Positions 1,184 to 63,658 of a stretch of 64,000 nt of DNA are shown piece by piece. Positions within the stretch are counted from its first letter, which is position 1, and each line of letters opens with the position of its first letter. The DNA comes from Thermoplasmata archaeon (GTDB taxonomy: Archaea; Thermoplasmatota; Thermoplasmata; Sysuiplasmatales; Sysuiplasmataceae), in assembly GCA_021806165.1 (NCBI GenBank), contig JAJZXY010000008.1, positions 11,334 to 75,333 of the forward strand. The letters run 5' to 3'. The notes beneath the pieces are model-generated. The model did no database searches, was not told the DNA's origin, and was given only the letters and a program-made list of their open reading frames with translations. Made by a program: the position numbers and the translations under genes.

Positions 1184-1185
1184 AG

Positions 1186-36771: not shown

Positions 36772-38823
36772 CTACTTGATCCTGCCAAGGAAGAAGGAGC
36801 CTATGCTGAGCTCGCTCTTGCCCGCTGTATATTCCACCCTCTCCCTGGTCTGGGTTTCGCATATGCCCTGGACGGAGAGGAAATTGGTCCTCCCGTCGGT
36901 GCTGAATTCCATGACCCCGTCCATAATGCTGCTGATGATCTGCAGGTCCTGCTCGGACATGATACCCTTCTCGATGCTGTAGGCTGCGACGCATCCGTCC
37001 TTGCGCCTTCTCGCGACGAACTGCCTTAGGAGGGAGAATATGCTCTTTATGTCATGGTTCGTGCTGAGGCTGGAAACAGACCTGAAGACAAGCCTGTAGC
37101 CCTTCTCTCCGATCCTGTCGCCGATGCGTGCAAGGTGCGCGTCCACCAGAGCACCAATTTCCTCCACGTCCGCATCCTCCTCCAGGTAGGATGCATTCTC
37201 CTCCACCGAGCTGTCCCCGACCACCCTGGAGTATGCGTCCACGTAGAAGACCAGCCCCTGCTTCTCATAGTCGCCGAACGAAGCAGTGAAGCGCGACATC
37301 TCCTCCCTTATTTCCTCTATAGTCTTGTCCGTGGTAACCCATATCAGAGGAACGCCGTCGGCGATGCCCTGGGCGGCAAATGCGTCCATGGCTGTCTCCT
37401 TCCCTATGAACGACGGCCCGTAGACAACCATCTGCGAACCCACCGGAATGCCTCCGTTCAGCAGGTCGTCCAGCCTGGGAGTCCCTGACTTCACCTTGTC
37501 CTGCTGCTCCGTCTCAGGCGGTGTGAAGGATGGTGCCTCCATATCCATGAAATCGCTACCCCCAATCCTGACGTAACTGCTCTTGCTGGCCATTTCCTCC
37601 TCAAGTGCCTTCACCCTTTCATCCTTGACGGCAAGCATCTCCTTCAGCTCATCCGCGCTCCTGGCCAGCTCATCCCTTTCCTCCAGATAGGCATCAGACT
37701 GGCGCAGGCTCTCCTTCAGCCTCTCAAGGTCTTCGCTCATAAGCCTGATCCTTTCCTCCCTTTCCTTCAGCTGTTCGGAAAGGAGGTCGTACCCCCTCTT
37801 CAGCTCCTCCATGCCCGCCGACTCGGACAATGCGCGACTTGCGCTCTCCCTGGCTTTCTCCTGCTGCTCGCGTGCTGAAGCCTCAAGCCTGTCCACCTCG
37901 GCCCGGAGCCTGCCGATCTCCCCGTCCCTCCGTTCGAGTTCAGCCTGGAGCTCTTTCACCCTCTCATCCCTGAGCCTTAGCTCGCTCTTGAGCTCTTTTG
38001 CCGTCCTGTCAGCGACCCTGAGCCTTGCCTCGAACAGCTGTGTGGTCTTAACAAGCTCGCTCTCTGCCCTTCCCGGGGCTGCGGGCTGCACCTTGGCCCG
38101 AGTCTCCTTCTTTACTCCCTCAGCCCCCCCAAACTCCTGTCTGAGGAAGGATGCAAAGAGGGTGTTTGTCCACTCCGCAAGATTGTTTTTCCTGAATTCA
38201 GTCAGCGCCAGGTTCAGCAGTTCGAACTTCTGCCCCTCAGTCAGAAGTGAATATTCCTTCCTGAAATGCTGTATCGATCTGTCCATGTAATCCATGCCCA
38301 GGGCGGTGGAGTAGCGCTCCATCTCCTCGGCCCTGAAGATCGGTATGACGAAGTCTGAATAGTACAGGGAGAGGAGCTTCTTGGCAATCTCCTTCTCCCC
38401 GCCGAAACCAGGGATCACACCCCAGTTCTGGTCTATCTTGGAGGAGATGCTCTTCTTGTCGGAAACAAGCACCGTGAGGAGCACCTTGAAGAAATCGAAT
38501 CGCCGCACAGCCTCCTGGAATATAGCAGGGCTCATCGGCTGCACAGCGCCGACTGAGGATGTCCTGTCCTGCAGCCAGTTGAAGAACCTGTCATCGGCCG
38601 CCCCCTCAAAAAGGTCGTCCGGTGTCATTGCCCTCAGGAGGTCAGCCCTTTCCTTGTACGGGTATCGACCCACAAACTCACTTATCTGCTGCCTCGCCGT
38701 GCGCTCGCTGACAGCAATGTCTCCCGAGGCGGCAAAATCCAAAGCCCGGGCTATAACCTCCTTGGTATCCATGCGGATCTCACTTCCATTGATATATTTT
38801 AACAGTTCACCCTGATTATTCAT
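36772..38823 (-). CDS. Three-part protein: unknown N-domain, long coiled coil, C-terminal KaiC/RecA-like ATPase domain with degenerate Walker A
   Basis: 683 aa. Residues about 250-430 are heptad-rich (ELKSELRLRDERVKELQAELERRDGEIGRLRAEVDRLE...). C-terminus LDDLLNGGIPVGSQMVVYGPSFIGKETAM... is KaiC-like, but the Walker A position has GKE instead of GK[ST]. Confidence 0.5.
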   Translation of the reverse strand: MNNQGELLKYINGSEIRMDTKEVIARALDFAASGDIAVSERTARQQISEFVGRYPYKERADLLRAMTPDDLFEGAADDRFFNWLQDRTSSVGAVQPMSPAIFQEAVRRFDFFKVLLTVLVSDKKSISSKIDQNWGVIPGFGGEKEIAKKLLSLYYSDFVIPIFRAEEMERYSTALGMDYMDRSIQHFRKEYSLLTEGQKFELLNLALTEFRKNNLAEWTNTLFASFLRQEFGGAEGVKKETRAKVQPAAPGRAESELVKTTQLFEARLRVADRTAKELKSELRLRDERVKELQAELERRDGEIGRLRAEVDRLEASAREQQEKARESASRALSESAGMEELKRGYDLLSEQLKEREERIRLMSEDLERLKESLRQSDAYLEERDELARSADELKEMLAVKDERVKALEEEMASKSSYVRIGGSDFMDMEAPSFTPPETEQQDKVKSGTPRLDDLLNGGIPVGSQMVVYGPSFIGKETAMDAFAAQGIADGVPLIWVTTDKTIEEIREEMSRFTASFGDYEKQGLVFYVDAYSRVVGDSSVEENASYLEEDADVEEIGALVDAHLARIGDRIGEKGYRLVFRSVSSLSTNHDIKSIFSLLRQFVARRRKDGCVAAYSIEKGIMSEQDLQIISSIMDGVMEFSTDGRTNFLSVQGICETQTRERVEYTAGKSELSIGSFFLGRIK

Positions 38824-38984
38824 AGAGATAACGTCTCCATAAACTCCAGCAGCAGGAATCGCACTCCGCCTCTGCCCGCGCGCACAGAATCATGCCTCCA
38901 GCTTAACAGCATGTGTCAGTATTCCCTGCCGTGAAAGCCGCGTGCCAAGTTATTTAGCAAGAGCGGTTTCTCCGGGTCAGGAAA

Positions 38985-40646
38985 ATGAAGGCCTTCGGCA
39001 AATTCCTGATCATTCTGTTCATAATCTCCCTTCTCCTGCTGCTGCCCCCCGTCGTTCCGGGCGCCGCCGCCATAATCCTCGGAACCAGCACCGTCTCAGG
39101 AATCTACCAGCTGCTGGAGCAGTATGCCCTGATGGGCATCGCGGCCGCCTTTGCTGTCACGCTGGCATATGCCCTTGCCCGAAGACACATGGGGACGCAC
39201 AGGGGACTTTATGCCCTCTACGGGCTGGCGCTCATTGCGGTCAACTACCTTTCAGGCAATCCTCTTCCCCCCCTGTACATCAGGCTTGCAGCCCTCGCTG
39301 CAATTGCAGCTGTGGATGCCGCATACGTGGCTGCCGTCTGGGGAAGGCTCAGGCGGATATCATTCCTCTCCATGAGCATCCCCGCCGTCTACCTGGTCAT
39401 TGCCTACCCCCTCTACTACCTTGAGCTGGCAGGATTTGCGGTATTCGTTCTCTCGTTTTCGGTCATGCGGCGGACGGTAGGCGACTCGGTCGTATCCGTG
39501 AATCTCGATACTGTCCGAAGGGCCAGCGGCAACAAGTCCGCGCCTTCAACGCGGCAGCCTGGCAGCGTGATCGGTAATGCTGCCGGAGGCGGAAAGGGAA
39601 GGAAGGCACGAAGGCTGGAAGCCGCGGCAGCAGCCTCTGCCTCCCAGCCGGCCGCGCCTTCCCCCAAGCCATCGCCAGCCCAGCCACCGAAGCGGAAGCA
39701 GGCAGAACCGCCGTCAAACGTGCCGTGGCCGGCACAGAGCGACTATGCCAGGGCGATGCAGAACATTGCATTCAGCATATCCGCATCCTATCCGGAGATG
39801 CGTTCGTCGAAGGTTGTTCCGAATCCATACGTAAAGCTTGCAGGCAACATAGTCTACTCGTCTGGCAACTACGGGACCATATTCAAGCTGGAGAACGGCG
39901 GCTCCGCCCAGGCACTGAAGTGCTTCACAAGAAGCAAGCCGGACATCAATGGCCGCTACTCATCAATTTCGAAGGAGCTCAAGTCCCTGTCCAGGAAGAA
40001 GCTGGCTTTTGTAGACTTCCAGTACCTTCCGGGGGCAATCAGAACCTTCAAGGAGCCGTCCATGTTCTTCCCTGTCCTCCTCATGGACTGGGTCGAAGGA
40101 AGCAACCTCAACACATATGTTTCTGAGCACCTGCGCAGCCCCGAGAGCCTGAAGAGGATGGCATCCTCCTTCCTGGATGAAATGGTGAGAATAAGGAAGG
40201 CAGGCATAGCACACGGCGACATTGCAGGTGACAACATAGTCATCGGGACGGCAGGCGGGCTTACCCTGGTGGACTATGACGGAATGTATGTGCCAGCTTT
40301 CAGGGGATTCAAGTCCCAGGAGCTGGGGCACGATAATTTCCAGCATCCTGCCAGGGGTTCTGATGATTTCTCAGAGAGACTGGACAACTTCTCCATCCTT
40401 GTCACATACCTGAGCCTGCTGGCTGTTGCAGGCGACCAGTCTCTGTGGGGAAAGTACAACAAGGGGGACCAGGACTGCCTGATTTTCAGAAAGGCGGACT
40501 TCCAGAATCCATCCCAGTCAACTGTGCTGAAGGAACTCGGAAGGCAGAAGGGGAAGGTAAGGGACCTCGCAGCGCTCATGGAGGATTCGTTGCGCCATCC
40601 GCCACTCTGGTCAGGGTGCGACCCGCAGCAGATACTCAAGGCATAG
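38985..40646 (+). CDS. Membrane-anchored Ser/Thr protein-kinase-like protein (Hanks-type catalytic-loop variants)
   Basis: N-terminal about 170 aa with about 4 TM helices; Pro/Ala/Lys-rich linker; C-terminal domain with VAIK-like K (QALKCF), hinge LLMDWVEG, catalytic loop HGDIAGDNIVI and DFG-variant VDYDG. Confidence 0.55.
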   Translation: MKAFGKFLIILFIISLLLLLPPVVPGAAAIILGTSTVSGIYQLLEQYALMGIAAAFAVTLAYALARRHMGTHRGLYALYGLALIAVNYLSGNPLPPLYIRLAALAAIAAVDAAYVAAVWGRLRRISFLSMSIPAVYLVIAYPLYYLELAGFAVFVLSFSVMRRTVGDSVVSVNLDTVRRASGNKSAPSTRQPGSVIGNAAGGGKGRKARRLEAAAAASASQPAAPSPKPSPAQPPKRKQAEPPSNVPWPAQSDYARAMQNIAFSISASYPEMRSSKVVPNPYVKLAGNIVYSSGNYGTIFKLENGGSAQALKCFTRSKPDINGRYSSISKELKSLSRKKLAFVDFQYLPGAIRTFKEPSMFFPVLLMDWVEGSNLNTYVSEHLRSPESLKRMASSFLDEMVRIRKAGIAHGDIAGDNIVIGTAGGLTLVDYDGMYVPAFRGFKSQELGHDNFQHPARGSDDFSERLDNFSILVTYLSLLAVAGDQSLWGKYNKGDQDCLIFRKADFQNPSQSTVLKELGRQKGKVRDLAALMEDSLRHPPLWSGCDPQQILKA

Positions 40647-41370
40647 TTATTGTGATTAGTGTGATATCGTCATTCTTGATGCTGCCTGATGCTATGAGTC
40701 CGCCTATGTAGGAGTCGAAGTCGCCTGCTTTCGAAGCAAGCTCCTCCCAGGGTCTGCCCCCCTTGTTCTGCAGAATCCATTTTGAGAGTGCGTCCGTGGC
40801 CAGCATGATGCTGTCACCCTGCTTCAGCCATCCGTACTTCACCTCAATACCCGGTATCTCCACTTCCCTGCCGCGTCCCGCCTTCCCGCCGAGCCCGCTC
40901 CACATCAGCCTTGGTGTGTTGCCGAGGTCCCTGCTGTCTGCAAAGGGGAATGATTCCATCCTCTGGCCGCTGACAAGGAACATGCATGAATCTCCCACCG
41001 TGAAGCACCTGAACCTCCTCCTCTCCCCTTCAGCCTCCACCTGGAGGCCGAGCAGCGTCGCGTATGAGCCCATGAACGCCTTGTTCCTCTGGTACCACGG
41101 GAGTCCCTCCCAGTCAATTCCTCCGTACCAGCGATCCCTGGCAGCAGTCAGGACATCCCTCATGACATCCCTGTCGTTCCTGCCGAAGTCCGGCGGGCTT
41201 TCCACGAAGGTTGTCACCAGCGCCCTTGCCCAGACGTCTGCGAAGCTCGACTCAGTCGCACCGTCCGCTACTGCAAAGACTCCCCTGGCGCCGTCGTATG
41301 CGAAAGCATCCTCGTACTCGCTTTCGCTGTTTCCCGTCTTGGGCCTGTGGAATTCCTTAACGGTGAACAA
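40636..41370 (-). CDS. PP2C-family protein phosphatase
   Basis: 244 aa; FAVADGATESSFADVWA and C-terminal DDITLITI PP2C motifs. Confidence 0.65.
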   Translation of the reverse strand: MFTVKEFHRPKTGNSESEYEDAFAYDGARGVFAVADGATESSFADVWARALVTTFVESPPDFGRNDRDVMRDVLTAARDRWYGGIDWEGLPWYQRNKAFMGSYATLLGLQVEAEGERRRFRCFTVGDSCMFLVSGQRMESFPFADSRDLGNTPRLMWSGLGGKAGRGREVEIPGIEVKYGWLKQGDSIMLATDALSKWILQNKGGRPWEELASKAGDFDSYIGGLIASGSIKNDDITLITITMP

Positions 41371-42210
41371 CTACTGCATCTGCCCCTGTGGTCCCCTGGT
41401 CCCTATGTCAATGAACTGGACGAGCTGTTCGAGCTGTGCATTGAAGACATATGCCCTGGCCTCGTCGCCCAGGTTTATCTGCATCTCCCTGGCATACCCT
41501 ATGTACTGCTGCGGCAGCCTGCTTGATATGGTGAACAGCGACTTCGCGTACTTGTCATCCGGAAGCTCCGTTTCGGCAGCAGGGAATGAAACCGGGACTG
41601 CCGGATTCGACGAAAGGTGGCAGTTCCATACAAGCGGAGCCCCGTCGGCGGAATTCAGCGACATGATTTCCTCTGCGATGTCAGCCGGGTTGCCGTCCGT
41701 TGCCTGGCCGTCTGTGATGTTTATGAGTATTGGAGGGTATGAGGACGGGTGGTTGCCCATCCACTCCTTTATGATGTCCCTTGCAAGGCCAAGCGCCTTG
41801 CACATGGGCGTGTCACCGCTCGCAGTGGGATCAAACCAGACACCGAAATCGTAATCGACCTCGGTTATACCGCCCGCTCCATCTGACACCTTCATCTGCC
41901 TCTTCTCCACGCGAAGCGTGCTCGAGGCGAGCTGCGATATCGGGTTAACCCTGTCACCCCTGAGGATGGAGTCGGCCTTGCCTGTCGTGAAACCGTAGCC
42001 TATGACACCTATGTGGAAGTAGTCCCTGATTCCGTCGCTCTTGGTGCACCTGAGCACAAATTCCCCTATCTGCCTGTTTATTGCGTCGGATGCCTCCTGC
42101 GCCTTCGATCTGTCACCGCCCGGAAGCTTGTAGCTCATAGATTTGGACTGGTCGATCATGAAGAGCACTAGTGAAGGATTTGACCTGCTGATCTCTGCTT
42201 CGTACGACAT
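41371..42210 (-). CDS. von Willebrand factor A (vWA) domain protein (TerY-like)
   Basis: 279 aa; MIDAS motif LVLFMIDQSKSM and later ITDGQATDG. Stop-start adjacent to the PP2C gene. Confidence 0.7.
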   Translation of the reverse strand: MSYEAEISRSNPSLVLFMIDQSKSMSYKLPGGDRSKAQEASDAINRQIGEFVLRCTKSDGIRDYFHIGVIGYGFTTGKADSILRGDRVNPISQLASSTLRVEKRQMKVSDGAGGITEVDYDFGVWFDPTASGDTPMCKALGLARDIIKEWMGNHPSSYPPILINITDGQATDGNPADIAEEIMSLNSADGAPLVWNCHLSSNPAVPVSFPAAETELPDDKYAKSLFTISSRLPQQYIGYAREMQINLGDEARAYVFNAQLEQLVQFIDIGTRGPQGQMQ

Positions 42211-42595
42211 GCTGCAAAAAAAATCAATACTTTATAAATACCCTCGCTCCTGATTGTCCCACCTTAATTCCAGCACCGAAAATCGTGCGCATTCCACAAC
42301 TCCATTCCGGACCCCCTGCACGGGATCCTGCATAGCTTTCTCGCTGTCACAAGGCGTCGGGGGGAGGCAAATAAGGTATATTGAAAGGCGCACTCCATGT
42401 ACTTTGTCAGCGGCACAATACGATTTGCAGAATGCGGTTGCTCCCCGCAGGAGTGCAGCTAGTCAGGGACGGCATCAGACTGCCCAGTCTGCACAACCAC
42501 CCCCTGCTGCCGAATCCCAGCTGCATGGATTGATTTCCGGTGCTGCTCGGGGCAGCATTCAGCCCGAACAGCCGTCGGCAGCCAATGCCGATGAC

Positions 42596-43033
42596 TCAGG
42601 ACGGAGGAACAGCTGCAGGCGCACCCCATGGCTTCTCAGGCATACTCTCGTGGATCGGGAAGTGTGCTGCCGCGGTCACAATCTGTGCCACAGGCGGTAT
42701 GACGAATCCGACCATGACGATGGAAAATGCAGCCACTATGAAGTAGAGCAGGCCTTCCGTATGGAATGTGTGCACATCAAGACCCTCACCTGCCGCATTG
42801 TAGCTCCTCCTGAGGTACACTGCCGACATCATGAATAGAATCCATGCCGCCACCAGGCCTATGGCCATAATCAGTGCGAAGGCCAGCCACCGGGCCCGCG
42901 TTACGCCAGGTGCAGGGGTCAATGGATCCATCCCGGTGAAATAGTCATTCTGGAATGCATTCAGCACCGTTGCTGTGACCACCACTGATGCCGCGACCCT
43001 TGCAGCAAACGGGAATATCACGGCTGCAATCAT
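42596..43033 (-). CDS. Hypothetical small membrane protein
   Basis: Track ORF 42596-43180 has about 4 hydrophobic helices. Its upstream part runs into the IS left end, so a start near MIAAVIF (about 43033) is more plausible. Weak. Confidence 0.25.
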   Translation of the reverse strand: MIAAVIFPFAARVAASVVVTATVLNAFQNDYFTGMDPLTPAPGVTRARWLAFALIMAIGLVAAWILFMMSAVYLRRSYNAAGEGLDVHTFHTEGLLYFIVAAFSIVMVGFVIPPVAQIVTAAAHFPIHESMPEKPWGAPAAVPPS

Positions 43034-43118
43034 GCTTCGGAATATCTCCGTGCCTCCCGGGTCGTAAAGATTTGAGGATCTGATATTTGAAACAGCTGGT
43101 TGCAGGGGCTGTGGGACA

Positions 43119-44165
43119 CTATTGCTGAGGTCTTCCCATATTGAGCAGATTATGCCACACGCCTGTACAGAACAGCGCATTGTCTATCCTGTCACTCCTC
43201 TTCTGCGCTATGTTCCATCCAAGCATCTTCTTGTCCGCAGAGAAGCCCGATTCCGAGTTGCTTCTCTGATGATACTCTCCGAGATACTCCATAGTGTTTT
43301 CGACAAAGTACTTCATGGTGTGTTTCCACTTCAGCGAGCCGTTCAGTGTGGCATTGCTCTTAGGTATGATGTACACCTTCGCACTGCCGAACCTGTCCAC
43401 ATATGACGGTGATGAATAGTACCTGTCGAGTCTGACGGAAGACATCTCGATATCCAGGGACGAAAGCATGGTCATGGCCCTGTCGAACGCCTCCCTCTCC
43501 GATTTCATGCTCGAGCCGAATGCCATGTACATCACTGTCTTCAGATCCATCAGTGCAAAGGAGTATGCAAAGAGGCGCCTCTTACGCTCCTTCGGCGCAG
43601 CTGCTGCGCCGTTCTCTGCATCCTTCCCCGGATTCTCCTTTGCAAGATCCTTGAGTTTCTGTGCATGTGACTCGTAGTTCTTCTTTACAGTCAGCGAGTA
43701 ACCTGTTCCGTCACCGGTTGCATCCGAACTCCGTATATCCTTCCTGCCGAGTATGAGCACATGCAGATTGTGTATCGCCAGCTGCACCTCCTCATCCGAA
43801 TACAGCCGTTCGACTGTCTTGTACGACACGTCGATGCCTGAGAGCATGGAATACATCACAAGCATGTTGGCGAACATGCGGTTGCTCCCGCCAGCAAGCT
43901 GCTTGATCAGCAGCAGCTTCACCCTCTGTTCGAGTGTCAGGGAGTGAGGATGTCCCGGTCCCTGCAGAATGTGAATGACGGACACCGCCTGGTGTATGAG
44001 CGGATCGAGTTCATTCATCGCAGTCCTGATCCTCAGTGCGAACTGCTGCTCGTATGTGCGCCAGTCACGTTTCTTCGGCGGATGCTCAAGCACATATTTC
44101 CTGCCAAGGTAGTCGTCTATCTCATGCAGTTTGCGCTGAATATCGTCGCTCGAAATTATCGCCAT
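43119..44165 (-). CDS. DDE transposase (IS4/IS5 superfamily)
   Basis: 348 aa; C-terminal Y-x2-R-x3-E-x6-K signature (YHQRSNSESGFSADKK) and upstream D-containing motifs (SSDATGDGTG). Confidence 0.7.
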   Translation of the reverse strand: MAIISSDDIQRKLHEIDDYLGRKYVLEHPPKKRDWRTYEQQFALRIRTAMNELDPLIHQAVSVIHILQGPGHPHSLTLEQRVKLLLIKQLAGGSNRMFANMLVMYSMLSGIDVSYKTVERLYSDEEVQLAIHNLHVLILGRKDIRSSDATGDGTGYSLTVKKNYESHAQKLKDLAKENPGKDAENGAAAAPKERKRRLFAYSFALMDLKTVMYMAFGSSMKSEREAFDRAMTMLSSLDIEMSSVRLDRYYSSPSYVDRFGSAKVYIIPKSNATLNGSLKWKHTMKYFVENTMEYLGEYHQRSNSESGFSADKKMLGWNIAQKRSDRIDNALFCTGVWHNLLNMGRPQQ

Positions 44166-44226
44166 TTGATTACAGTATAACCGGCACGGATATAAACATG
44201 TCTATAGACATCTTTATTACACACCG

Positions 44227-44430
44227 TTGCATTTACCGTCTGTGAGCAGGAAGATCTTTGTTCTCAATAACAAGATGACAATCACAGACGATGAGATAGA
44301 AGGGATTCTGGAGAGAACAGTCACACCTCAAGGCACATCCGCCAAAGCAGATGTGCCGAGGCGGTACATGGGCAAGAGAGTCTATGTGATAATTACAAAG
44401 TCGGAAGGAGAGAAGAGGGACGAACAATAG
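44227..44430 (+). CDS. Small AbrB/SpoVT-like swapped-hairpin protein inside the IS
   Basis: 67 aa; ...VTPQGTSAKADVPRRYMGKRVYVIITK resembles the AbrB/MazE-type fold pattern. Lies between the transposase start and the right terminal repeat. Confidence 0.35.
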   Translation: MHLPSVSRKIFVLNNKMTITDDEIEGILERTVTPQGTSAKADVPRRYMGKRVYVIITKSEGEKRDEQ

Positions 44431-44494
44431 TGTCCCACAGCCGGTTGCAGGGCAAAGTCAGTGACCGGTACATTTTTCGATCGAAAAGACATGC

Positions 44495-44525
44495 CCCTTC
44501 TGGGACGGGCAAAGTCCCAGAAGGG
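44495..44525. repeat. Perfect 11-bp-arm hairpin (CCCTTCTGGGA ... TCCCAGAAGGG, 9-nt loop) between the two transposase genes
   Basis: Read directly. Adjacent 14-nt palindrome TTTTCGATCGAAAA at 44474-44487. Confidence 0.5.
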
Positions 44526-45745
44526 TGTTACCAAACATGTCGGAAATGGATGTAGATGGCAGGATAAGAAAGTATTGGCAGAGAAAGGAGCTGATGCTGT
44601 CCGATGAGGACAGCACAAGGCTGGATGAACTTGTCGCATCCTTGGAGTTCAGGGATGCAACCGCCGGCACTCCTGTGTCGGCAATAGAGTTCTGCTCGCA
44701 CCTGAACTGTGAAGGGCTCATGCCCTTCATGGAAGGGGCATACAGCCGCTTCAATACCGTCAGGGACAGGCTCGTGCCGAGAATGCGTTTCACTGCATTC
44801 ATGTGCATGAGCGGGAGGCGGAACATAAGAGATGCCTACAACGCCGTTGTCTCGGACAACGGCTGGAAGCGCCTCGGCTTCCATGAAAAGCCTGTGTATG
44901 GGACATTGCGCGAATTCATCAACGAACGCATTGGTGACAGCAGGTTGCATGAACTCTTTCATGCAATCGTCACCGAATGTGTCCGCATGGCATCCTCCAT
45001 GGGCATGGAGATTGGAAGGAGGACAGGTGAGGATGCAACCGACGTGCACTCGCTGAAATTCGATGATGAGGCTGAATACAGCGGCTACTACAGACATAAT
45101 GGATACAAGGTCGACATAGTGCACGACCTCGACGACCCCTCACTTGTCCTGGACTACACACCAATGGGCATCAGCGGCGATGAGGGTGCATGCCTCATTC
45201 CGTCGCAGCAGAGGCTTGCTGCAGACGGCATATGCACGGTGGAACAGAAGGTTGACGGCAAATACACATCATACAGGAACATAGCGCATTCAGGCATAAA
45301 CGGCATACGCCTCCAGTAAAGCATGGAGAAGGACTGGGTTCTAAATCCTGCAGGCAACGGGAATGAGATAAGACGCCTCTACCAGAAATATCATGGCGAT
45401 GAGCATTTCAGGACAGGCGCAGCAGTCGCTGAAATGCTCATATTCCTCTGCAACAGGGGAGAGTATGAGGCTGTCGGCTCATACTTCCGCAACAGCGTGA
45501 TGGCCGTGGCGGAGACAAATCCGGAAGGCCATGTGCGCATCTGCAATGAGCGAAGCGGAAAGACCGAAGGGTTCATGGCTGTAACCAAGTCCACGACAGC
45601 AATCGATGCAAGACCATACAGACGTGGCAGGAAATGGTTTGAGCGCTCATGCCATTTCACATTCCTTGGCAGGATATTCGCCGCGCTTGTGAGGCTGCAG
45701 CATGGCATCGGGAAGCATCTCGGCTCACTGACATGCATAACATGA
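44525..45745 (+). pseudogene. Second, related DDE transposase interrupted by an in-frame TAA
   Basis: ORFs 44525-45319 and 45323-45745 are in the same frame, separated only by TAA at 45317-45319. Combined 406 aa with EDATDVHS and RSGKTEGFMAVTK segments paralleling the intact transposase (SSDATGDGTG; RSNSESGFSADKK), but the Y of the YREK motif is replaced. Confidence 0.45.
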
Positions 45746-49364: not shown

Positions 49365-51401
49365 CTACTTCTCCTCGGCCATTTTCCTTATCGACTCCAC
49401 GACTTCAGCATTCGCGAGCGTAGTCACATCACCCATTTCCATCTGGTTTGTGATTGATGCAAGAATTCTTCTCATGATCTTGCCTGAACGGGTCTTGGGA
49501 AGATCCGGAACGATGTAAATCTCCTTTGGCTTTGCGATAGGTCCGAGTTCTTTGGCGATTGTTGTGGTGATCTTCTCCTTGAGGCTATCTGTTGCCACAA
49601 AACCAGGCTTGAGTGATACGAACATTATAGGGACGCGGCCCTTTATGGGATCCTTCATCGGAACGGCAGCTGCCTCAGCAACCTCCTCCGTCATTAGTGC
49701 AGCGTTTTCAAGCTCCTTTGTGCCGAGCCTATGGCCGGATACGTTGATGACGTCATCCACTCTTCCCAGGATCCTGTAATATCCGTCAGCACTCTGAACG
49801 GCCCCATCCCCTGCAAAGTACGGCCAATCCTGCCATGACTTGCTGTTCGGGTTGGTGCAATATTTCTTGTAGTAGACATCCACAAACTTCTGCGGATCTC
49901 CCCATATGGTCTGCATGATACCCGGCCATGGATTCCTTATGCAAATGTTACCTGCTATACCCTTTCCCTTTTCAATAGTCTTGCCGTTTTCGTCTAATAT
50001 TACCGGATATATCCCAGGCATACCTGGACCGGCACTTCCGGGTTTCATGGGCGTAAGCGCAGGCAGTGTGCTGCAAAGGAATCCACCGTTTTCAGTCTGC
50101 CACCAGGTATCTGTTATTACAGCCTTCCCCTTTCCGACTACATCGTAGTACCATTTCCACACATCCGGCTCAATCGGTTCACCCACAGTAGTCATGCACT
50201 TGAAAGAATACTTGTACTTCTTTGGTTCATCAGGGTCAGCCTTCCTAAGAGTCCTGATAGTTGTAGGTGCGGTGTGGAATATGTTCACACCCAGCCTTTC
50301 TGCAATTCTCCACGGCCTGCCCTTGTCGGGGAAGAGGGGAACACCTTCGTACATTACGGAAGTGGCCGCGAGGGCAAGCGGGCCGTACACAATATACGAA
50401 TGGCCCGTTATCCAGCCTATGTCTGCAAAGCACCAGTAAACATCCTCAGGATGTATGTCCTGAACGAACTTTGACGTCCCGGCGACGTACGCCAGATAGC
50501 CCCCTGTCCTGTGCTGCACTCCCTTTGGCCTTCCAGTTGAGCCGCTCGTATACATCAGGAAAAGAGGCGCTTCAGCGTCCATAGAGGCAGGTGCGATGGT
50601 TTTCCCCTCGAAGGGCTTTACCAATTCATCAACAAAGAAGTCACGTCCTTCCACCATTGCAGACTGGGACATGTATTTGTCCTGGTACCTCTTCCAGACC
50701 AGAACCTTCTTTATCTTGACGCCCAGCTTGTCTGCTTCCTCGACTGTCAGATCCGCCTCTTTCTTCTTGTCTATGACCTTTCCATTCCTGTAATAGCCAT
50801 CACATGTGACAAGAATATCACTCTTGGAATCCTCCATCCTCTCAGCACATGCTTTAGGGCTGAATCCGCCGAAAACCTGGTTGTGGATTATGCCGAGCCT
50901 TGCGGCCGCGAGCATAGAGATAGGAAGTTCTGGAATCATTGGCAGGTGAAATGTGACTCTGTCCCCGGCCTTCAACCCCAGTGACTGAAGGACAAGCGCA
51001 AACTCATTGACCCTCTTGTAAAGCTCGCGGTAAGTAATAACAACGTCCGGCTCGCCTTCAGGTTCAGGGACCCAGATGATGGCAGCCTTGTCCCCGTACT
51101 TCTCAAGATGCCTGTCAACACAATTGTAGCTCGCATTCAGCTTTCCTCCCACGAACCACTTCCAGAAAGGCGGGTTGCTGGTATCGAGCGTCTTGTCCCA
51201 CTTCCTTTCCCAGGTGAGCATATCGGCGTATTCGTGGAAACACTCTGGAAAATTCTTTTCGCTGAATCTTTCGTAGACCTTCGGATCTTTCATGTTTGCC
51301 TGAGCAACAAAGGAGGGTGGTGGATTGATAAGTGGTTCTTCCTTCCAGTGTACAGCGATTTCAGCCTCGCTTAATTCCATTTTCTCTCTCTCAGAAACCA
51401 T
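49365..51401 (-). CDS. acs: Acetyl-CoA synthetase (AMP-forming)
   Basis: 678 aa; YTSGSTGRPKG AMP-binding motif, Acs-typical N-terminus and C-terminal ...SGKIMRR. Confidence 0.85.
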   Translation of the reverse strand: MVSEREKMELSEAEIAVHWKEEPLINPPPSFVAQANMKDPKVYERFSEKNFPECFHEYADMLTWERKWDKTLDTSNPPFWKWFVGGKLNASYNCVDRHLEKYGDKAAIIWVPEPEGEPDVVITYRELYKRVNEFALVLQSLGLKAGDRVTFHLPMIPELPISMLAAARLGIIHNQVFGGFSPKACAERMEDSKSDILVTCDGYYRNGKVIDKKKEADLTVEEADKLGVKIKKVLVWKRYQDKYMSQSAMVEGRDFFVDELVKPFEGKTIAPASMDAEAPLFLMYTSGSTGRPKGVQHRTGGYLAYVAGTSKFVQDIHPEDVYWCFADIGWITGHSYIVYGPLALAATSVMYEGVPLFPDKGRPWRIAERLGVNIFHTAPTTIRTLRKADPDEPKKYKYSFKCMTTVGEPIEPDVWKWYYDVVGKGKAVITDTWWQTENGGFLCSTLPALTPMKPGSAGPGMPGIYPVILDENGKTIEKGKGIAGNICIRNPWPGIMQTIWGDPQKFVDVYYKKYCTNPNSKSWQDWPYFAGDGAVQSADGYYRILGRVDDVINVSGHRLGTKELENAALMTEEVAEAAAVPMKDPIKGRVPIMFVSLKPGFVATDSLKEKITTTIAKELGPIAKPKEIYIVPDLPKTRSGKIMRRILASITNQMEMGDVTTLANAEVVESIRKMAEEK

Positions 51402-51802
51402 AAGGAGGTGAATAGCCGATCATAAGTTTATATTTTTGCTAATTTGAACCGGCTCCGTTCAGATTGGAAGCATGCCAGAGGCCAGCTACATGTGGTCAGG
51501 TCCATACACAAGGCATGTTGCATTGAAATAATATGTTGTAAAGGTTAATCACAGGAAAAATTATGAAGTATTTCCTTTATAACACACGCTAATTTCGCTT
51601 TGCTGTTTATGGAGCCATAAATTATTTTTGTATGCATAATTCGTAAGTTTTCTCAAACATAAGAAAAATATTGCAGATCTGAATTCAATTGCGGATTTGG
51701 TTGTAACATGCTTATTACTTGACCACTTCTACACTAGGTTATTATACGTCCAAGGCGTTTCGTGTCTAATCACTTCGGCGCTATTCAGTTGAAAGAGGGG
51801 GA

Positions 51803-52405
51803 TTGATGGCAACATCGTTGGAGAATCCATTTGGCAAAGCATTGACGGCAGATCCTGCCCCGTTGGGACTCGCAGGCTTCGCTTTTACAACATTCCTGCT
51901 AAGTTTCTACAATGCAGGCTTCCTTTCGGGCCCTGACGTGGTAATCCCGCTTGCAATCGCATACGGAGGGCTTGGGCAACTGTTTGCCGGCGCGTTTGAG
52001 ATGAGGAAGGGGAACACATTCGGCTTTACCGCCTTTTCAAGTTATGGCGGATTCTGGCTATTCTATGCAATGCTGGTCATATTCGCATCGCTGCACATCA
52101 TAGCACCCACCGGAAAGGAAATTGGCTTTGCTCTGATTCTGTGGGGCTTCTTTACACTGTATATGTGGGTGCCGGCCATGATGGCCAACACGACACTGAA
52201 TCTGACATTCCTGTTCCTTTGGCTGGCATTCTTTGTTCTGGGTGCAGGCGCAATCTACAACAGCACCACTCTGGACCACATCGGCGGATATCTCGGGTTC
52301 CTTACTGCCTTCTTCGCAGCCTATACAAGCTTCGCAATCGTGACCAATTCCGTCAGACCGCACACCCTGCCTCTTGGCCCGGGGATCTTAAAGAAAAAGT
52401 CCTGA
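51803..52405 (+). CDS. GPR1/FUN34/YaaH (SatP) acetate/succinate channel family
   Basis: 200 aa, 6 TM; N-terminal NPAPLGLAGFA-type motif (ADPAPLGLAGFAFTTF). Confidence 0.75.
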   Translation: MMATSLENPFGKALTADPAPLGLAGFAFTTFLLSFYNAGFLSGPDVVIPLAIAYGGLGQLFAGAFEMRKGNTFGFTAFSSYGGFWLFYAMLVIFASLHIIAPTGKEIGFALILWGFFTLYMWVPAMMANTTLNLTFLFLWLAFFVLGAGAIYNSTTLDHIGGYLGFLTAFFAAYTSFAIVTNSVRPHTLPLGPGILKKKS

Positions 52406-53521
52406 ACTGGGACGCACCGTCAGCCGTATTGCTAACAGGCTGGCGGTCAACAAACCTATTCCCCGCATTCTCCCCTACTACCCCCGCCCGCAGGCTGTGC
52501 AAGTGCCACCTTCCATGGCAGGGAATGCATGCAGTCGATTGTAGGAGCATTGTGTGGAGGGCATGGGTCATATTTCAGCAATGCAGCGAAGCTTCAGGAA
52601 GGGAAGCATGCCACATTTTGCCACGTCAGCCTTTGCGGTTGCGTATGATTTTTGGGCCTCATGTGAGGACCTGGAACCATCTGATGCCGTTGCCGTCAGG
52701 ATCCCTGATATAGAAGAAGCTGATGACTTGTGGCACTGTCCTGACACCCTTTGCGGCTACGCCGGATGTACGAAGTCTGTCACGTTCCCTTTAGAAGTCC
52801 CCGACTTACAGCTGCAGATTCCAGTTGGTGGCTTAACCTTGTGTTATTCAATCTGCACCCTCGTCTCACTTACTTTGCATTCCATGTTGCCAGGAAAAAG
52901 CTCAAGGTCAGGGTCCTTGCCGAAGGGACGATTGTGACAGCAAGGGCCAGGGGTGCCAGTTCTTGCGCCAAGGGCCTGTCCGTCTTCTTCGTTCCAGCCA
53001 AACGGAATGACGGCACGAGCAATTATGCCGTGAGAAGACTGAAGGAAAAACTCGGGACGATATCTGTGCCGACTGGGGAGGTCGAGATGTAGGACTTGCA
53101 GGCATTCATGCTGGGTGAGAAGTAAAAGGGCATCTACTATTTTATGTAGATTTTGACAATATCAAGAATAGATGATGAGCTGGCTGCTGCAGGCATCGCA
53201 AGCAAGGCTCTATGGGAGGCGTGCAAGTATTCAAGCTGACAGGGCGAAAATATCTTAGTTTGGAAGAGATTTGAGGTGAATATATTGAAATTACAGGATC
53301 AGGAAATTACAGCAGTTCTGGTACACTATCCGCATCCCCCGATGTTTCTGCTTTTTCATGTTTGCTGATGTTGTTGGATCCTCCTGGAAATTGCCAGATT
53401 GTTGTAAATTCACCTCTTGTTCCAATCCTGCAAGGAACGATGTTGTTCCCATAGCATTGTTTATCGGCTGGTATTCTCAGTTTGTGGTTAGGTCGATAGG
53501 TAACAAGCGAAAGTTATAATA

Positions 53522-54187
53522 TTGTATAATTATTACTTCTTTTATATGGAACCAATTGCAGACCTCATTACCGGTGACAGGTTAAGACTTGCAGAACTGC
53601 AGGATGGGGTGATAGATATCATCTACAATCGTATTGAACCTGATGCGATACTCTATGGCGGAACTGCTATTTGGCGCTGTTATGGCGGCAACAGATTTTC
53701 TGAGGACATCGATATATACTTGAGCAACAGAGGGCTGAACAAATTCATTCGGTCATTACCTAAATACGGCATTCGCCTGCTTTCCCGGGACAAAGAATTA
53801 CCGTCAATAATCAGGATTGCGAAAGGGGAAACAAGTTTGTTGCTGGAGACGAAGGAAGGGCACTCGGAGAGCATGATAAGGCAATATGTCCGAGTCGATG
53901 GCAGCTCTACAACTGTCAGCGTGTTCACTCCAGCTGAAATGTTAATCAGGAAGATAGAAGCATACCAAGGAAGGAGATTTGTTCGAGATGTCTATGACAT
54001 CTTCATACTAACCAGGTTTCTGGACAAAAGTGACCATGTTGTTGCTTCGTCGCTCTCCTCCTTCCTGGCAAAATCCAAACCGCCTGTTGACGAAGATGTG
54101 CTCAAATCACTGATATACACAGGAAAGGGCGATTTTCGATATAGTGAAATGCTGGGCTACATCAAGAGGTGGTTAAGCGAAGTATGA
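53522..54187 (+). CDS. AbiEii/AbiGii-family nucleotidyltransferase (type IV TA toxin-like)
   Basis: 221 aa; ILYGGTAIWRCYGGNRFSEDIDIY matches the AbiEii GGTAL...R.SeDiD motif. Confidence 0.6.
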   Translation: MYNYYFFYMEPIADLITGDRLRLAELQDGVIDIIYNRIEPDAILYGGTAIWRCYGGNRFSEDIDIYLSNRGLNKFIRSLPKYGIRLLSRDKELPSIIRIAKGETSLLLETKEGHSESMIRQYVRVDGSSTTVSVFTPAEMLIRKIEAYQGRRFVRDVYDIFILTRFLDKSDHVVASSLSSFLAKSKPPVDEDVLKSLIYTGKGDFRYSEMLGYIKRWLSEV

Positions 54188-54188
54188 A

Positions 54189-54773
54189 CGTTCATTTGCA
54201 GAGTACTTCGGAAGGCTTCCTCTGTTTACCGCCGGAGACGCCAAGAGGTATCTTGCAAGCCTAGGTTCTAGTGAGGAATACTCCAGGCTGCTCCTTCATA
54301 ATCTGGTGAGGGGCAAGCGGTTGGTGCGAATTAAGAAAGGGTTTTACACATTCTCAAATGATGAGAACGTAATTGGCTTCGCCTTCAGGCCCTTCTATTA
54401 TGGCATGGAGTACGCTCTCACGCTTCGGAAGATATGGACACAGCAAGCAAATCCAGTAATCATAACCACCTCAAAGGCAAATGCCGGATTGAGAGAGGTG
54501 ATGAAATCAAAGGTGATAGTTCGGAGGATTGATTCTCACGCATTCTTTGGGTTCGAGTACCTGAGCTTCTCTGGACTATTCGTTCCAGTGTCATTACCAG
54601 AGAAGATACTGCTGGACTTCCTGTACTTTCGTGCTGACATCGATCCAGTAACTCGACAGGCATTGATTAATGAATCCAACCGGAAAGTTCTGAGGGAGTT
54701 TGCAGAGAGAATGGGTAGCCGTTACTCGACGCAGATTGATTCCCTAATCAGTGACAGTATGGTTGGGGACTGA
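54189..54773 (+). CDS. AbiEi_4-family antitoxin-like wHTH protein; start codon unresolved
   Basis: The frame is open from directly after the upstream stop (RSFAEYFGRLPLFTAGDAKRYLASLGSSEEYSRLLLHNLVRGKRLVRIKKGFYTF...) and matches the AbiEi N-terminal wHTH. The first start codon is GTG 54306. C-terminal ...VSLPEKILLDFLYF matches the family. Confidence 0.5.
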   Translation, partial: RSFAEYFGRLPLFTAGDAKRYLASLGSSEEYSRLLLHNLVRGKRLVRIKKGFYTFSNDENVIGFAFRPFYYGMEYALTLRKIWTQQANPVIITTSKANAGLREVMKSKVIVRRIDSHAFFGFEYLSFSGLFVPVSLPEKILLDFLYFRADIDPVTRQALINESNRKVLREFAERMGSRYSTQIDSLISDSMVGD

Positions 54774-54958
54774 GGTTCCTTGGTCCACTCTTCCATTCGT
54801 CTCACCAATCTCGTCAATAGGTATTAACCAACAAGAGAACCAGTCAGGTCATACTTCAAAGGTTGCGAATTGTTGTAATTTCGTTCCTTTCACATTGAGT
54901 TGATCTCTTGTGGTATCTGCTCACGGACAACAATAGTCGGTGAAGTGTAAGGGCTGTT

Positions 54959-56005
54959 TCAGTGGGTTGAGGTGCTGAATACAGCCCTTCTTCTGTAAGC
55001 AAAGATCCTTCTTACTGGTTTTTCAAGGTGTATGTAAATGATTGCAATCACAGGCTGTATCATTGGGATTATGGCCGGGGCGAGAGCCGCAGATGATGAA
55101 AGCGCCATGGTTGCAATGGCGGCAGTTACGCTCTGATTCTTTGTCACGGAGATGAATGCCACCGATTGATGATCCTCGTATGACAGCCTGAGGGCACGAC
55201 TTACAACTATCGCAAGCAGCAGCAGGCCGACTATTATGGCGGTCTGGTACCCGATAATGTAGCCGACTATTTCCGGCTTGGAAATTATGACGCCAGCTTC
55301 CTTGTCGACCAGGACAAAGATCAGAGCGAACATCGAATGCATTGTCGCGAGTGAAAGATGCGGCTTGATGGTCTTTCCCACATAGTCAGAACCCCTGTAC
55401 CTTATCAGAATGAAGCGCGTGACCTGGCCAATTATGAACTGCAGCACGAGTATGTAGATGACTGACGTCATAATCGGCCTGACTGATGCAGTGGCCGCCA
55501 GATTCCTACTGTAAATATCCAGAAAGAGGGGTATTGCAGGAATTGCAACAGCCAGGCTCAGAACTGCCAAGGCGGTTGCGAGCTCAAGACTCCCTCCTGC
55601 TATCAGCACATAGCCGAGTGAAGCGCTTGATGCTGGGGCAATGTTGGCTGTCACGAAGCCAAGGCCTACGGAACTATTTCCCAGTGACGGTGCCAATGTG
55701 AATGCTATCACCGGCGATAGAGCGAAGACACAGATCATCGAGACGACAATTGCCTTCCACGACCTGAAGGACTTGCCCATTCCTTCAGTCTTCAACTGAA
55801 CCATTGATGGATATATCGTGAGAATTGCAAAGACAAGCACAAGATCGGAAAAGAGCGACTTGTTGGCGGATGTGAAGACTCTGGTGTAGTAACCCACCGG
55901 TAGCGCTATTGCCAGAGAAAGAACCGTCTATATTATCAGGTACTTTCTCACATGCTCAGCAATTGCCGCAACACCTCTTAGACTTTGCATTTCTCCATCA
56001 GCCAT
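54959..56005 (-). pseudogene. ACR3-family arsenite carrier gene with in-frame TAG
   Basis: ATG at 56005 gives MADGEMQSLRGVAAIAEHVRKYLII, then TAG (55930-55928), then TVLSLAIALPVGYYTRVF... continuing in frame to 54959. Total 348 codons, ACR3 size. The TAG sits where ACR3 proteins have the Trp of RYLT(I/L)WIF. Confidence 0.55.
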
Positions 56006-57829: not shown

Positions 57830-57830
57830 T

Positions 57831-59398: not shown

Positions 59399-59450
59399 AT
59401 CTCAATTGCCTAATTTCCGGGTTAGTTATAAAGACAACTCAAACCTGCAA

Positions 59451-60587: not shown

Positions 60588-60590
60588 AGA

Positions 60591-63655: not shown

Positions 63656-63658
63656 AAC

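What the first reader, a model, noticed from the sequence alone, without database searches (positions are those of the whole stretch)
38985..42210. TerY-P-type triad (vWA, PP2C phosphatase, Ser/Thr kinase) with a membrane-anchored kinase
vWA with an intact MIDAS motif, a PP2C gene directly adjacent, and a convergent Hanks-type kinase correspond to the TerY-P triad described in comparative-genomics work on Ter systems, a predicted phosphorylation switch. Here the kinase carries an N-terminal 4-TM domain and a Pro/Ala-rich linker, and its catalytic motifs are variant (HGDIAGDN, DYDG).
Basis: partly seen in the sequence, partly recalled or inferred. Interest (0 to 1): 0.55.

Follow-up and report, generated by a model that had tools for sequence, protein, structure and literature searches.

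The report
Membrane-tethered TerY-P phospho-switch in Thermoplasmata
Three neighbouring genes encode a metal-binding adaptor protein, a phosphatase and a membrane-anchored protein kinase; they are an archaeal version of a known bacterial anti-virus module (TerY-P), its usual nucleic-acid-binding tail replaced by a six-helix membrane anchor, and they are inherited like a core gene set across a whole class of acid-loving archaea.

Summary
ORFs 41371-42210(-), 40636-41370(-) and 38985-40646(+) encode a TerY-type vWA protein, a PP2C phosphatase and a protein kinase. All three match the PADLOC TerY-P models (E 6e-91, 3e-26, 2e-55). MIDAS, PP2C and kinase catalytic residues are conserved.

- The anchor has six helices, not four.
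- HGD....N and DYDG are signatures of the whole TerY-P kinase family, not oddities of this gene.
- TerY-P is now an experimentally shown anti-phage system in bacteria.

What differs here:
- The kinase lacks the C-terminal OB-fold (or zinc ribbon) of described TerY-P kinases. It ends with the kinase domain.
- It carries an orphan N-terminal 6-TM domain and a disordered linker instead.
- The triad, with the kinase convergent on PP2C, recurs in 48 Thermoplasmata genomes among housekeeping genes. It diverges in step with a linked housekeeping gene.
- The membrane-anchored kinases form a single clade.

Verdict: a new variant of a known kind, moderately interesting. Whether it serves virus defence or has become a resident membrane-proximal signalling switch is unresolved.

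The parts
41371..42210 (-). TerY-type vWA protein (279 aa) with intact MIDAS (D20, S22, S24, T134, D167)
   Evidence: PADLOC TerY PDLC02224, E 6e-91, residues 1-275 on profile 1-275/277. MIDAS residues are at least 95% conserved in 53 archaeal relatives. 53 of 279 positions are at least 95% identical across 119 archaeal and bacterial relatives.
40636..41370 (-). PP2C-family phosphatase (244 aa); TTG start abuts the vWA stop codon (translational coupling inferred)
   Evidence: Pfam PP2C_2 above its cut-off. PADLOC PP2C PDLC02222, E 2.9e-26, full length. E20, D21, D36, G37, D127, D193, D234 and D235 are conserved in 52 relatives. Junction sequence read. The vWA-stop/PP2C-start junction abuts or overlaps (-4 to 0) in most loci.
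38985..40646 (+). Membrane-tethered TerY-P-family protein kinase (553 aa), convergent on PP2C
   Evidence: PADLOC STK_OB, E 2.2e-55, residues 292-532 on profile 41-280/562. Pfam Pkinase, E 3e-6. AlphaFold2 mean pLDDT 79.5. Foldseek PDB top hits are protein kinases.
38985..39479 (+). N-terminal six-helix membrane domain (residues 1-165), an orphan fold with predicted N-in/C-in topology
   Evidence: AlphaFold2 of the domain alone: pLDDT 86, pTM 0.80. No PDB fold match (best E 0.59). Only 5 hits among 1.8 billion representative proteins; 2 are full-length kinases of this family and 3 are short 194-255-aa proteins of unknown context. No Pfam family.
39480..39716 (+). Disordered Pro/Ala/Ser/Lys-rich tether (residues 166-244)
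   Evidence: pLDDT below 50 for residues 182-238. Length varies from 56 to 135 aa and net charge from -10 to +18 among relatives, so the segment is a spacer and not a conserved binding module.
39717..40643 (+). Kinase domain (residues 245-553): K312, H410-G-D412, N417, D430-Y-D-G433, E446, D467. The protein ends with the kinase domain.
   Evidence: These residues are invariant in 20 close relatives and conserved across 120 archaeal and bacterial relatives. All archaeal members end about 124 aa after DYDG.
40636..40646 (.). 11-bp tail-to-tail overlap of the kinase and PP2C reading frames
   Evidence: An overlap of 8-17 bp occurs in 36 of 46 related loci.
42231..42240 (-). TATA-like box (TATTTATAAA) centred about 26 nt upstream of the vWA ATG; likely promoter of a leaderless vWA-PP2C transcript
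   Evidence: Read directly from the sequence. The promoter function is inferred from the known archaeal TATA position and was not tested.
38950..38957 (+). Weak TATA-like element (TTATTTAG) about 31 nt upstream of the kinase ATG, in the 161-bp divergent intergenic region
   Evidence: Read directly from the sequence. Inference only.

Best explanation
This is a TerY-P-family three-gene phosphorylation switch that has become a resident, vertically inherited module of Thermoplasmata. Its kinase is tethered to the cytoplasmic face of the membrane. The vWA (TerY) and PP2C genes form one translationally coupled unit. The kinase gene is transcribed separately from the opposite strand and overlaps the PP2C gene tail to tail. 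The kinase has a six-helix anchor (N-in/C-in), a flexible tether of about 65-80 residues, and a catalytically complete kinase domain in the cytoplasm. Inferred steps: a membrane-level event (virus entry or egress, or membrane, pH or metal stress) changes kinase activity or access. The kinase then phosphorylates the soluble TerY vWA protein, and possibly its own Ser/Thr-rich tether. Phosphorylation changes what the MIDAS face of TerY binds, and the PP2C resets the system. The membrane domain takes the place of the OB-fold or zinc ribbon of bacterial TerY-P kinases as the input or localisation module. Shown here: homology of all three proteins, intact catalytic and MIDAS residues, the architecture, the conserved gene arrangement, and the pattern of inheritance. 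Not shown: the substrate, the trigger and the physiological output.
For: All three proteins match the TerY-P models. The kinase fold is confirmed. K312, D412, N417, D430, the APE-like E446 and the subdomain-IX-like D467 are conserved across 120 relatives. That pattern fits a full eukaryotic-type protein kinase C-lobe better than a RIO- or APH-type small kinase (inference from established ePK anatomy). MIDAS and PP2C metal ligands are conserved. The KIN> <PP2C <VWA arrangement occurs in 48 of 53 Thermoplasmata loci; the other five are cut by contig ends, one of them after an IS insertion. Neighbours are housekeeping genes and synteny holds within lineages. Against the syntenic relative L006 the triad is 65-80% identical, compared with 58-67% for the adjacent GltB-like and PheA genes. 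Pairwise identities of vWA, kinase and PP2C track those of a linked NreA-like gene (Spearman 0.92, 0.89, 0.69). Archaeal kinases form one clade and the polytopic-membrane ones a sub-clade (NJ tree). The six-helix domain is modelled with confidence. Precedent for a kinase-regulated vWA protein in archaea: ArnB (PMC5007285).
Against: No experiment on any archaeal member was found. The mechanism of TerY-P itself is unknown, even in bacteria. The catalytic-loop Lys of HRDLKxxN is Ala here (Ser or Ala in all archaeal members, Gln or Lys in bacteria). No conserved alpha-C Glu could be identified in the alignment (E331 varies), so activity and substrate class are not certain. The linked-gene correlation could also arise from co-transfer of larger blocks. 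The NJ tree has no support values. The membrane domain has almost no conserved polar residues, so it may be only an anchor and not a sensor. vWA conservation (about 50% identity even to bacterial TerY) is a property of the whole family and says nothing about domestication.
Confidence: 0.6

Rival explanations
1. It is simply an anti-virus TerY-P defence system of the kind shown in bacteria. It is carried by this archaeon as accessory immunity, and the membrane domain detects virus attack at the envelope.
For: Strong matches to all three PADLOC TerY-P models. Bacterial TerY-P protects against T7-like and Autographiviridae phages without culture collapse. Variable input domains on the kinase (OB, zinc ribbon, LRR, WD40 in bacteria; 6-TM, 2-TM or soluble N-domains in archaea) resemble the sensor diversification seen in immune genes. 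An IS element and a TA/conflict island lie elsewhere in the same window.
Against: The triad sits among metabolic genes, more than 11 kb from the low-GC TA/conflict island. It keeps its place within lineages, next to PCNA-like and NreA-like genes in several of them. It occurs in small genomes such as T. volcanium. It diverges at the pace of housekeeping neighbours. No close relative was found in viral contigs, though that scan has limited sensitivity. None of this excludes a conserved immune role.
Confidence: 0.27
2. The kinase-like protein is not a protein kinase acting on TerY. It is instead a pseudokinase scaffold or a small-molecule or lipid kinase (RIO/ABC1/APH-like) working at the membrane, and the gene adjacency reflects regulation of something else.
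For: The Pfam Pkinase score is below its gathering threshold (27.3 versus 31.7 bits). Weak side-hits to Bud32, RIO, ABC1 and APH models. The catalytic-loop Lys is missing and the alpha-C Glu was not identified. The protein is membrane-attached.
Against: K312, D412, N417 and D430 are invariant, which does not fit a pseudokinase. The full C-lobe after DYDG (about 124 aa) has invariant APE-like Glu and subdomain-IX-like Asp. The best structural matches are protein kinases such as PknB. Strict co-inheritance with a protein phosphatase.
Confidence: 0.08
3. It is part of a Ter (tellurite or metal) stress-resistance system, as TerY is in the classical ter clusters.
For: TerY-P was first described in the Ter context as a proposed metal-sensing switch (as summarised in PMC11090510). 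A cation-efflux (CDF) gene lies 5 kb away.
Against: No TerB, TerC, TerD or TerZ-type genes are among the neighbours scanned in the window. No gene is conserved next to the triad across the 53 loci.
Confidence: 0.05

Closest known systems
Stand-alone TerY-P anti-phage system (Gao et al. 2020; PADLOC models TerY / PP2C / STK_OB)
   Same: The same three protein families, with strong profile matches. The vWA is about 46-51% identical to bacterial TerY proteins of the same length. The kinase shares the family signature A-x-K-C-F, HGD....N, DYDGM, E-x-G, D-x-F.
   Different: A canonical bacterial example (L058) has vWA>PP2C>kinase on one strand, and its 557-aa kinase covers the whole STK_OB profile (E 8e-217). 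The window kinase aligns only to residues 39-287 of that kinase (29% identity). It has no OB region and carries a 6-TM domain plus tether at the N-terminus. Its gene is convergent and overlaps PP2C. The context is chromosomal housekeeping genes, not mobile or defence genes.
TerY-P triads embedded in Type II/III-A CoCoNuT (McrBC-related) systems
   Same: vWA + PP2C + Ser/Thr kinase triad (PMC11090510).
   Different: There the kinase carries a C-terminal zinc ribbon and the triad is part of a large restriction-like operon. Here there is no zinc ribbon, and no CnuB/C/H/E-type genes were seen among the neighbours scanned.
ArnA/ArnB-ArnC/ArnD-PP2A archaellum regulatory network of Sulfolobus acidocaldarius
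   Same: An archaeal vWA protein whose interactions are switched by eukaryotic-type kinases and reset by a phosphatase (PMC5007285; papers listed). It is the best experimental precedent for 'kinase phosphorylates vWA protein' in archaea.
   Different: No FHA/zinc-finger partner gene is present here. The phosphatase is PP2C, not a PPP-type PP2A. The genes are not homologous at a detectable level (no ArnB hit in the PDB sequence search). The Arn genes do not form a fixed triad.
Deinococcus radiodurans DRA0331-DRA0334 operon (vWA, STPK, FHA protein, FHA-PP2C)
   Same: An operon that links a vWA protein, a Ser/Thr kinase and a PP2C, with demonstrated kinase-phosphatase antagonism (bioRxiv 10.64898/2026.01.23.701218).
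   Different: It contains FHA docking modules that are absent here. Membership in the TerY-P families was not tested.
Bacterial receptor-type Hanks kinases with PP2C partners (PknB/PstP type)
   Same: A membrane-anchored eukaryotic-type kinase paired with a PP2C. PknB is among the best structural matches.
   Different: PknB has an N-terminal kinase, one TM helix and extracellular PASTA sensors (own knowledge). Here a polytopic 6-TM domain precedes the kinase, there is no extracellular domain of any size, and the catalytic loop lacks the Lys.

Membership tests
TerY-P triad | TerY-type vWA protein with intact MIDAS | tested here: met
   PADLOC TerY, E 6e-91, full length. D20, S22, S24, T134 and D167 conserved.
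TerY-P triad | PP2C-family phosphatase encoded next to the vWA gene | tested here: met
   PADLOC PP2C, E 2.9e-26. Pfam PP2C_2 30.5 bits against a cut-off of 24. Metal-binding Asp residues conserved. The genes abut.
TerY-P triad | Kinase of the TerY-P-associated family in the same cluster | tested here: met
   PADLOC STK_OB, E 2.2e-55, on the kinase part of the profile. Shared signature with bacterial members. Kinase fold confirmed.
TerY-P triad | Kinase fused at its C-terminus to an OB-fold (stand-alone defence form) or a zinc ribbon (CoCoNuT-linked form) | tested here: not met
   Profile positions 281-562 are unmatched. The protein ends about 124 aa after DYDG, as in all 50 archaeal members. 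A bacterial control covers the whole profile. The pairwise alignment stops at residue 287 of the control.
TerY-P triad | Conserved co-occurrence of the three genes | tested here: met
   48 of 53 Thermoplasmata loci have all three genes; the rest are truncated by contig ends. The T. volcanium locus also has them.
TerY-P triad | Protection against virus infection | not testable with these tools
   Shown only for bacterial systems.
TerY-P triad | Typical context: defence island or mobile element (typical, not strictly defining) | tested here: not met
   Neighbours are an ammonium transporter, glutamate-synthase-like genes, prephenate dehydratase, a citrate-synthase-like gene, PPK2 and acetyl-CoA synthetase. 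Synteny and divergence resemble those of housekeeping genes.
Eukaryotic-type (Hanks) protein kinases | Beta-3 Lys, catalytic Asp, Mg-binding Asn and DFG-type Asp | tested here: met
   K312, D412, N417 and D430 are invariant.
Eukaryotic-type (Hanks) protein kinases | Catalytic-loop Lys of HRDLKxxN (Ser/Thr kinases) and alpha-C Glu | tested here: not met
   A414 replaces the Lys; this position is Ser or Ala in all archaeal members and Gln or Lys in bacteria. E331 in the alpha-C helix is not conserved, whereas D320, R324 and Y325 are. The role of those residues is unresolved.
Classical ter (tellurite resistance) cluster | Linked TerB/TerC/TerD/TerZ-type genes | tested here: not met
   None among the neighbours scanned. 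No conserved extra gene in the 53 loci.
Arn (ArnA/ArnB) module | FHA/zinc-finger partner of the vWA protein; homology to ArnB | tested here: not met
   No FHA hit among the neighbours. No ArnB chain was found by the PDB sequence search at E up to 1.

The most novel reading that the evidence does not exclude
An ancestor of the Thermoplasmata captured a bacterial-type TerY-P immune module once and domesticated it. The nucleic-acid-binding tail of the kinase was lost, and lineage-specific N-terminal modules were added: a 6-TM domain in the clade of this window, 2 TM helices in Thermoplasma, and soluble domains elsewhere. The triad now serves as a core membrane-proximal signalling switch in organisms that lack two-component systems. 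It would be an example of an immune module turned into housekeeping signalling. The very slow-evolving vWA protein (about 50% identical between archaea and bacteria) would be reading out a target conserved across both domains.
Probability: 0.3. Interest if true: 0.65.

Novelty: new variant of a known kind. Interest (0 to 1): 0.42.

Why it matters
The mechanism of TerY-P is not known, even though it works as an anti-phage system in bacteria. This archaeal form has only three parts, no nucleic-acid-binding tail and a kinase fixed to the membrane. That narrows what the core of the switch needs: kinase, PP2C and a MIDAS vWA protein. It also offers thermostable orthologues from cultivated Thermoplasma species for biochemistry and structure work; no close TerY or partner-PP2C sequence homologue was found among solved structures. 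Thermoplasmatales have no two-component systems (PMC5007285). A class-wide kinase/phosphatase/vWA module is therefore a candidate for one of their main signalling devices. The results also caution against reading every TerY-P hit from defence-finder tools as accessory immunity.

Tried and rejected

2. A basic tether as a substitute for the OB-fold. Rejected, because net charge ranges from -10 to +18 among relatives.

3. A link to the only biochemically characterised archaeal PPM phosphatase (T. volcanium, 218 aa). The triad's PP2C in T. volcanium is TVG0571216/BAB59724.1, 232 aa, annotated hypothetical. The original paper is not held, so identity could not be established. Some Thermoplasmataceae have a second PP2C paralogue nearby. 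I make no claim.

4. The soluble N-terminal extensions of Thermoplasmatales kinases looked PH/GRAM-like or beta-sandwich-like by eye, but Pfam gives no support.

5. L008 seemed to lack PP2C and vWA. In fact a TnpB-like IS gene follows the kinase and the contig then ends.

6. The scan of viral contigs for close vWA relatives found nothing. It has low sensitivity because it uses exact peptide patterns.

7. The 2012 paper that defined TerY-P (PMC4104200) is not held. Whether it already noted Thermoplasma versions is unknown.

8. One cluster look-up was wasted on wrong minus-strand coordinates.
Full report
WHAT IS THERE.

The finding's coordinates hold three ORFs:
- A kinase-like gene, 38985-40646 (+), 553 aa.
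- A PP2C gene, 40636-41370 (-), 244 aa.
- A vWA gene, 41371-42210 (-), 279 aa.

The PP2C TTG start follows the vWA stop codon directly. The kinase and PP2C reading frames overlap tail to tail by 11 bp. A TATA-like box (TATTTATAAA, 42231-42240 on the minus strand) is centred about 26 nt upstream of the vWA ATG. This suggests a leaderless vWA-PP2C transcript. A weaker TATA-like element lies about 31 nt upstream of the kinase ATG. Both promoter readings are inferences from the sequence.

FAMILY ASSIGNMENT.

Against PADLOC the three proteins hit the three consecutive models of the TerY-P system:
- TerY: E 6e-91, whole length.
- PP2C: E 2.9e-26, whole length.
- STK_OB: E 2.2e-55, but only profile positions 41-280 of 562.

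Pfam agrees more weakly: PP2C_2 is above its cut-off, while Pkinase and the VWA models fall below theirs.

Conserved functional residues:
- vWA MIDAS: D20-x-S22-x-S24, T134 and D167 are at least 95% conserved in 53 archaeal relatives and in 119 archaeal plus bacterial relatives.
- PP2C metal ligands: E20, D21, D36, G37, D127, D193, D234, D235 are conserved.
- Kinase: K312, H410-G-D412, N417 and D430-Y-D-G433 are invariant in 20 close relatives.

The kinase structure model (mean pLDDT 79.5) matches protein kinases such as PknB with Foldseek probability 1.00.

KINASE ANATOMY.

AlphaFold2 gives helices at 3-19 (plus a short 25-31), 35-65, 71-91, 96-117, 121-140 and 144-159, at pLDDT about 90. This holds in the full-length model and in a model of the domain alone (pLDDT 86, pTM 0.80). 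That makes six transmembrane helices, not four. All nine Lys/Arg of the termini and loops lie on one side (read from the sequence). The topology is therefore N-in/C-in and the kinase domain is cytoplasmic, like the signal-less vWA and PP2C proteins.

Residues 182-238 are predicted disordered. In relatives this tether varies from 56 to 135 aa and from net -10 to +18 charge, so it is a spacer. The kinase domain runs from about residue 245 to the C-terminus.

HGD....N and DYDG(M) are shared by all 120 archaeal and bacterial relatives examined. The 'variant motifs' are therefore the signature of this kinase family. The position of the canonical catalytic-loop Lys is Ala or Ser in archaea and Gln or Lys in bacteria. 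An APE-like Glu (E446) and a subdomain-IX-like Asp (D467) are invariant. That argues for a complete protein-kinase C-lobe and against a RIO- or APH-type enzyme (inference from ePK anatomy). No conserved alpha-C Glu was identified, and this remains an open point.

The membrane domain is an orphan:
- phmmer against 1.8 billion representatives gave five hits. Two are full-length kinases of this family and three are short 194-255-aa proteins of unknown context.
- There is no Pfam match.
- There is no fold match in the PDB.
- It has almost no conserved polar residues.

WHAT IS DIFFERENT FROM DESCRIBED TerY-P.

In the literature, the stand-alone defence form has a kinase with a C-terminal OB-fold, and the CoCoNuT-linked form has a zinc ribbon (PMC11090510). 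I fetched a bacterial control locus (L058). It has vWA>PP2C>kinase on one strand, and its 557-aa kinase covers the whole STK_OB profile (E 8e-217). The window kinase aligns only to residues 39-287 of that protein. All 50 archaeal relatives end about 124 residues after DYDG, whereas bacterial relatives carry 150-580 further residues (LRR, WD40, TM segments and others). The archaeal proteins thus invert the architecture: the variable module is N-terminal.

COMPARATIVE GENOMICS.

A scan of one genome per species found 53 Thermoplasmata loci and 3 Bacteroidales loci.
- In 48 archaeal loci the arrangement is KIN> <PP2C <VWA, as in the window. The other five are cut by contig ends, one of them after a TnpB-like IS insertion.
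- T. volcanium has the same arrangement.
- The kinase and PP2C frames overlap by 8-17 bp in 36 of 46 loci. The vWA-stop/PP2C-start junction abuts or overlaps in most.

Neighbours differ between lineages but are conserved within them, and they are housekeeping genes (PCNA-like, NreA-like, radical-SAM and others).

Against the syntenic relative L006:
- The flanking glutamate-synthase-like and prephenate-dehydratase genes are 58-67% identical.
- The kinase domain is 65%, PP2C 65% and vWA 80% identical.

Across 14 genomes, pairwise identities of vWA, kinase and PP2C track those of the linked NreA-like gene (Spearman 0.92, 0.89, 0.69).

In a neighbour-joining tree of kinase domains (no support values):
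- The 50 archaeal proteins form one clade.
- The 31 with a polytopic membrane domain form one sub-clade.

N-terminal modules by lineage:
- A polytopic membrane domain in 15 of the 49 archaeal loci with a complete kinase ORF, and in the window; these loci are the window's closest relatives.
- Two TM helices in Thermoplasma species.
- Unannotated soluble extensions of 130-190 aa in the other Thermoplasmatales.

The vWA protein is about 46-51% identical even to bacterial TerY proteins. Its slow evolution is therefore a property of the family, not of the archaeal lineage.

CONTEXT IN THE WINDOW.

The triad lies among genes for an ammonium transporter, glutamate-synthase-like proteins, prephenate dehydratase, a citrate-synthase-like protein, a CDF transporter, PPK2 and acetyl-CoA synthetase. 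A 1.3-kb IS with perfect 18-nt inverted repeats sits about 900 bp upstream of the vWA gene. A low-GC stretch more than 11 kb away carries AbiEii, two PIN toxins and an ORC-CDC6-like/PRTase-CE pair. The window's real conflict island is there, not at the triad.

HOW IT MOST LIKELY WORKS.

Shown:
- Three intact, co-inherited components of the TerY-P kind.
- A kinase tethered to the inner face of the membrane.
- vWA and PP2C coupled in one unit, with the kinase gene convergent and overlapping.

Inferred:
- The kinase phosphorylates the TerY vWA protein and perhaps its own Ser/Thr-rich tether.
- Phosphorylation alters MIDAS-mediated binding by TerY.
- PP2C resets the switch.
- The membrane domain, replacing the OB-fold or zinc ribbon, sets where or when the kinase acts, so the input is at the membrane and not on a nucleic acid.
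- The convergent overlap may let kinase and phosphatase expression oppose each other.

I put 0.6 on this switch being a resident, vertically inherited module whose role may or may not still be antiviral. The rivals get:
- 0.27 for ordinary accessory anti-virus defence.
- 0.08 for the kinase being a pseudokinase or a non-protein kinase.
- 0.05 for a Ter-type metal-stress role.

COMPARISON AND NOVELTY.

The triad works like TerY-P and is homologous to it. It fails one feature of the described forms (the C-terminal OB-fold or zinc ribbon) and lacks the usual defence or mobile context. The ArnA/ArnB network of Sulfolobus is the best experimental precedent for a kinase-switched vWA protein in archaea. 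It is not homologous at a detectable level, and no FHA partner is present here. I found no paper in the held library that describes a Thermoplasmata TerY-P. The founding 2012 paper could not be read.

I rate the finding a new variant of a known kind, with interest 0.42. It is solid and gives a useful handle on an immune module of unknown mechanism, but a specialist would not find it startling.

Noticed in passing
window 36772-38823 (-): A 683-aa protein with an unannotated N-domain, a long coiled coil and a C-terminal KaiC/RecA-like ATPase (Pfam KaiC 6e-18). It is divergent from the kinase gene across a 161-bp spacer. It is conserved at the same position in the two closest relatives with that flank (L001, L003; 50-51% identity) but absent in L004 and L006. 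It may be a lineage-specific accessory or substrate of the triad.
   Followed up: partly
window 43107-44442: An IS element bounded by perfect 18-nt inverted repeats (43107-43124 / 44425-44442). It encodes a weakly IS5-like transposase (43119-44165). Its end overlaps the 5' end of the DUF996 membrane-protein ORF (42596-43180), which it may have truncated or fused.
   Followed up: partly
window 44525-45745 (+): Two consecutive ORFs (264 and 140 aa) beside the IS have no hit in Pfam or NCBIfam.
   Followed up: no
window ~50000-64000: GC drops from about 57% to 41-48%. The stretch holds an AbiEii toxin (53522-54187), two PIN-domain proteins (56555-57085, 57422-57934) and an ORC-CDC6-like protein (60591-62654) overlapping a PRTase-CE protein (62519-63655). 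It looks like a horizontally acquired TA/conflict island.
   Followed up: partly
window 16194-18533: Two ORFs of more than 720 aa lie almost fully antisense to each other (16194-18362 on the minus strand, 16356-18533 on the plus strand). Only the minus-strand one has a weak family hit (CehA/McbA metallohydrolase domain).
   Followed up: no
L025 and L029 (Thermoplasmataceae MAGs): A second PP2C-cluster gene lies within a few genes of the triad. Some lineages therefore carry a PP2C paralogue.
   Followed up: no
L060 (Gemmataceae MAG): A bacterial TerY-like vWA + PP2C pair is followed by a convergent 692-aa kinase. That kinase belongs to the generic Hanks / PD-T4-6-like group, not to the STK_OB family. 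The kinase partner of TerY/PP2C pairs may therefore be exchangeable.
   Followed up: partly
window 979-3606 (+) and 11723-14164 (-): Two paralogous molybdopterin oxidoreductase large subunits (glyceraldehyde dehydrogenase / CODH-like). This is consistent with a heterotrophic Thermoplasmata archaeon.
   Followed up: no
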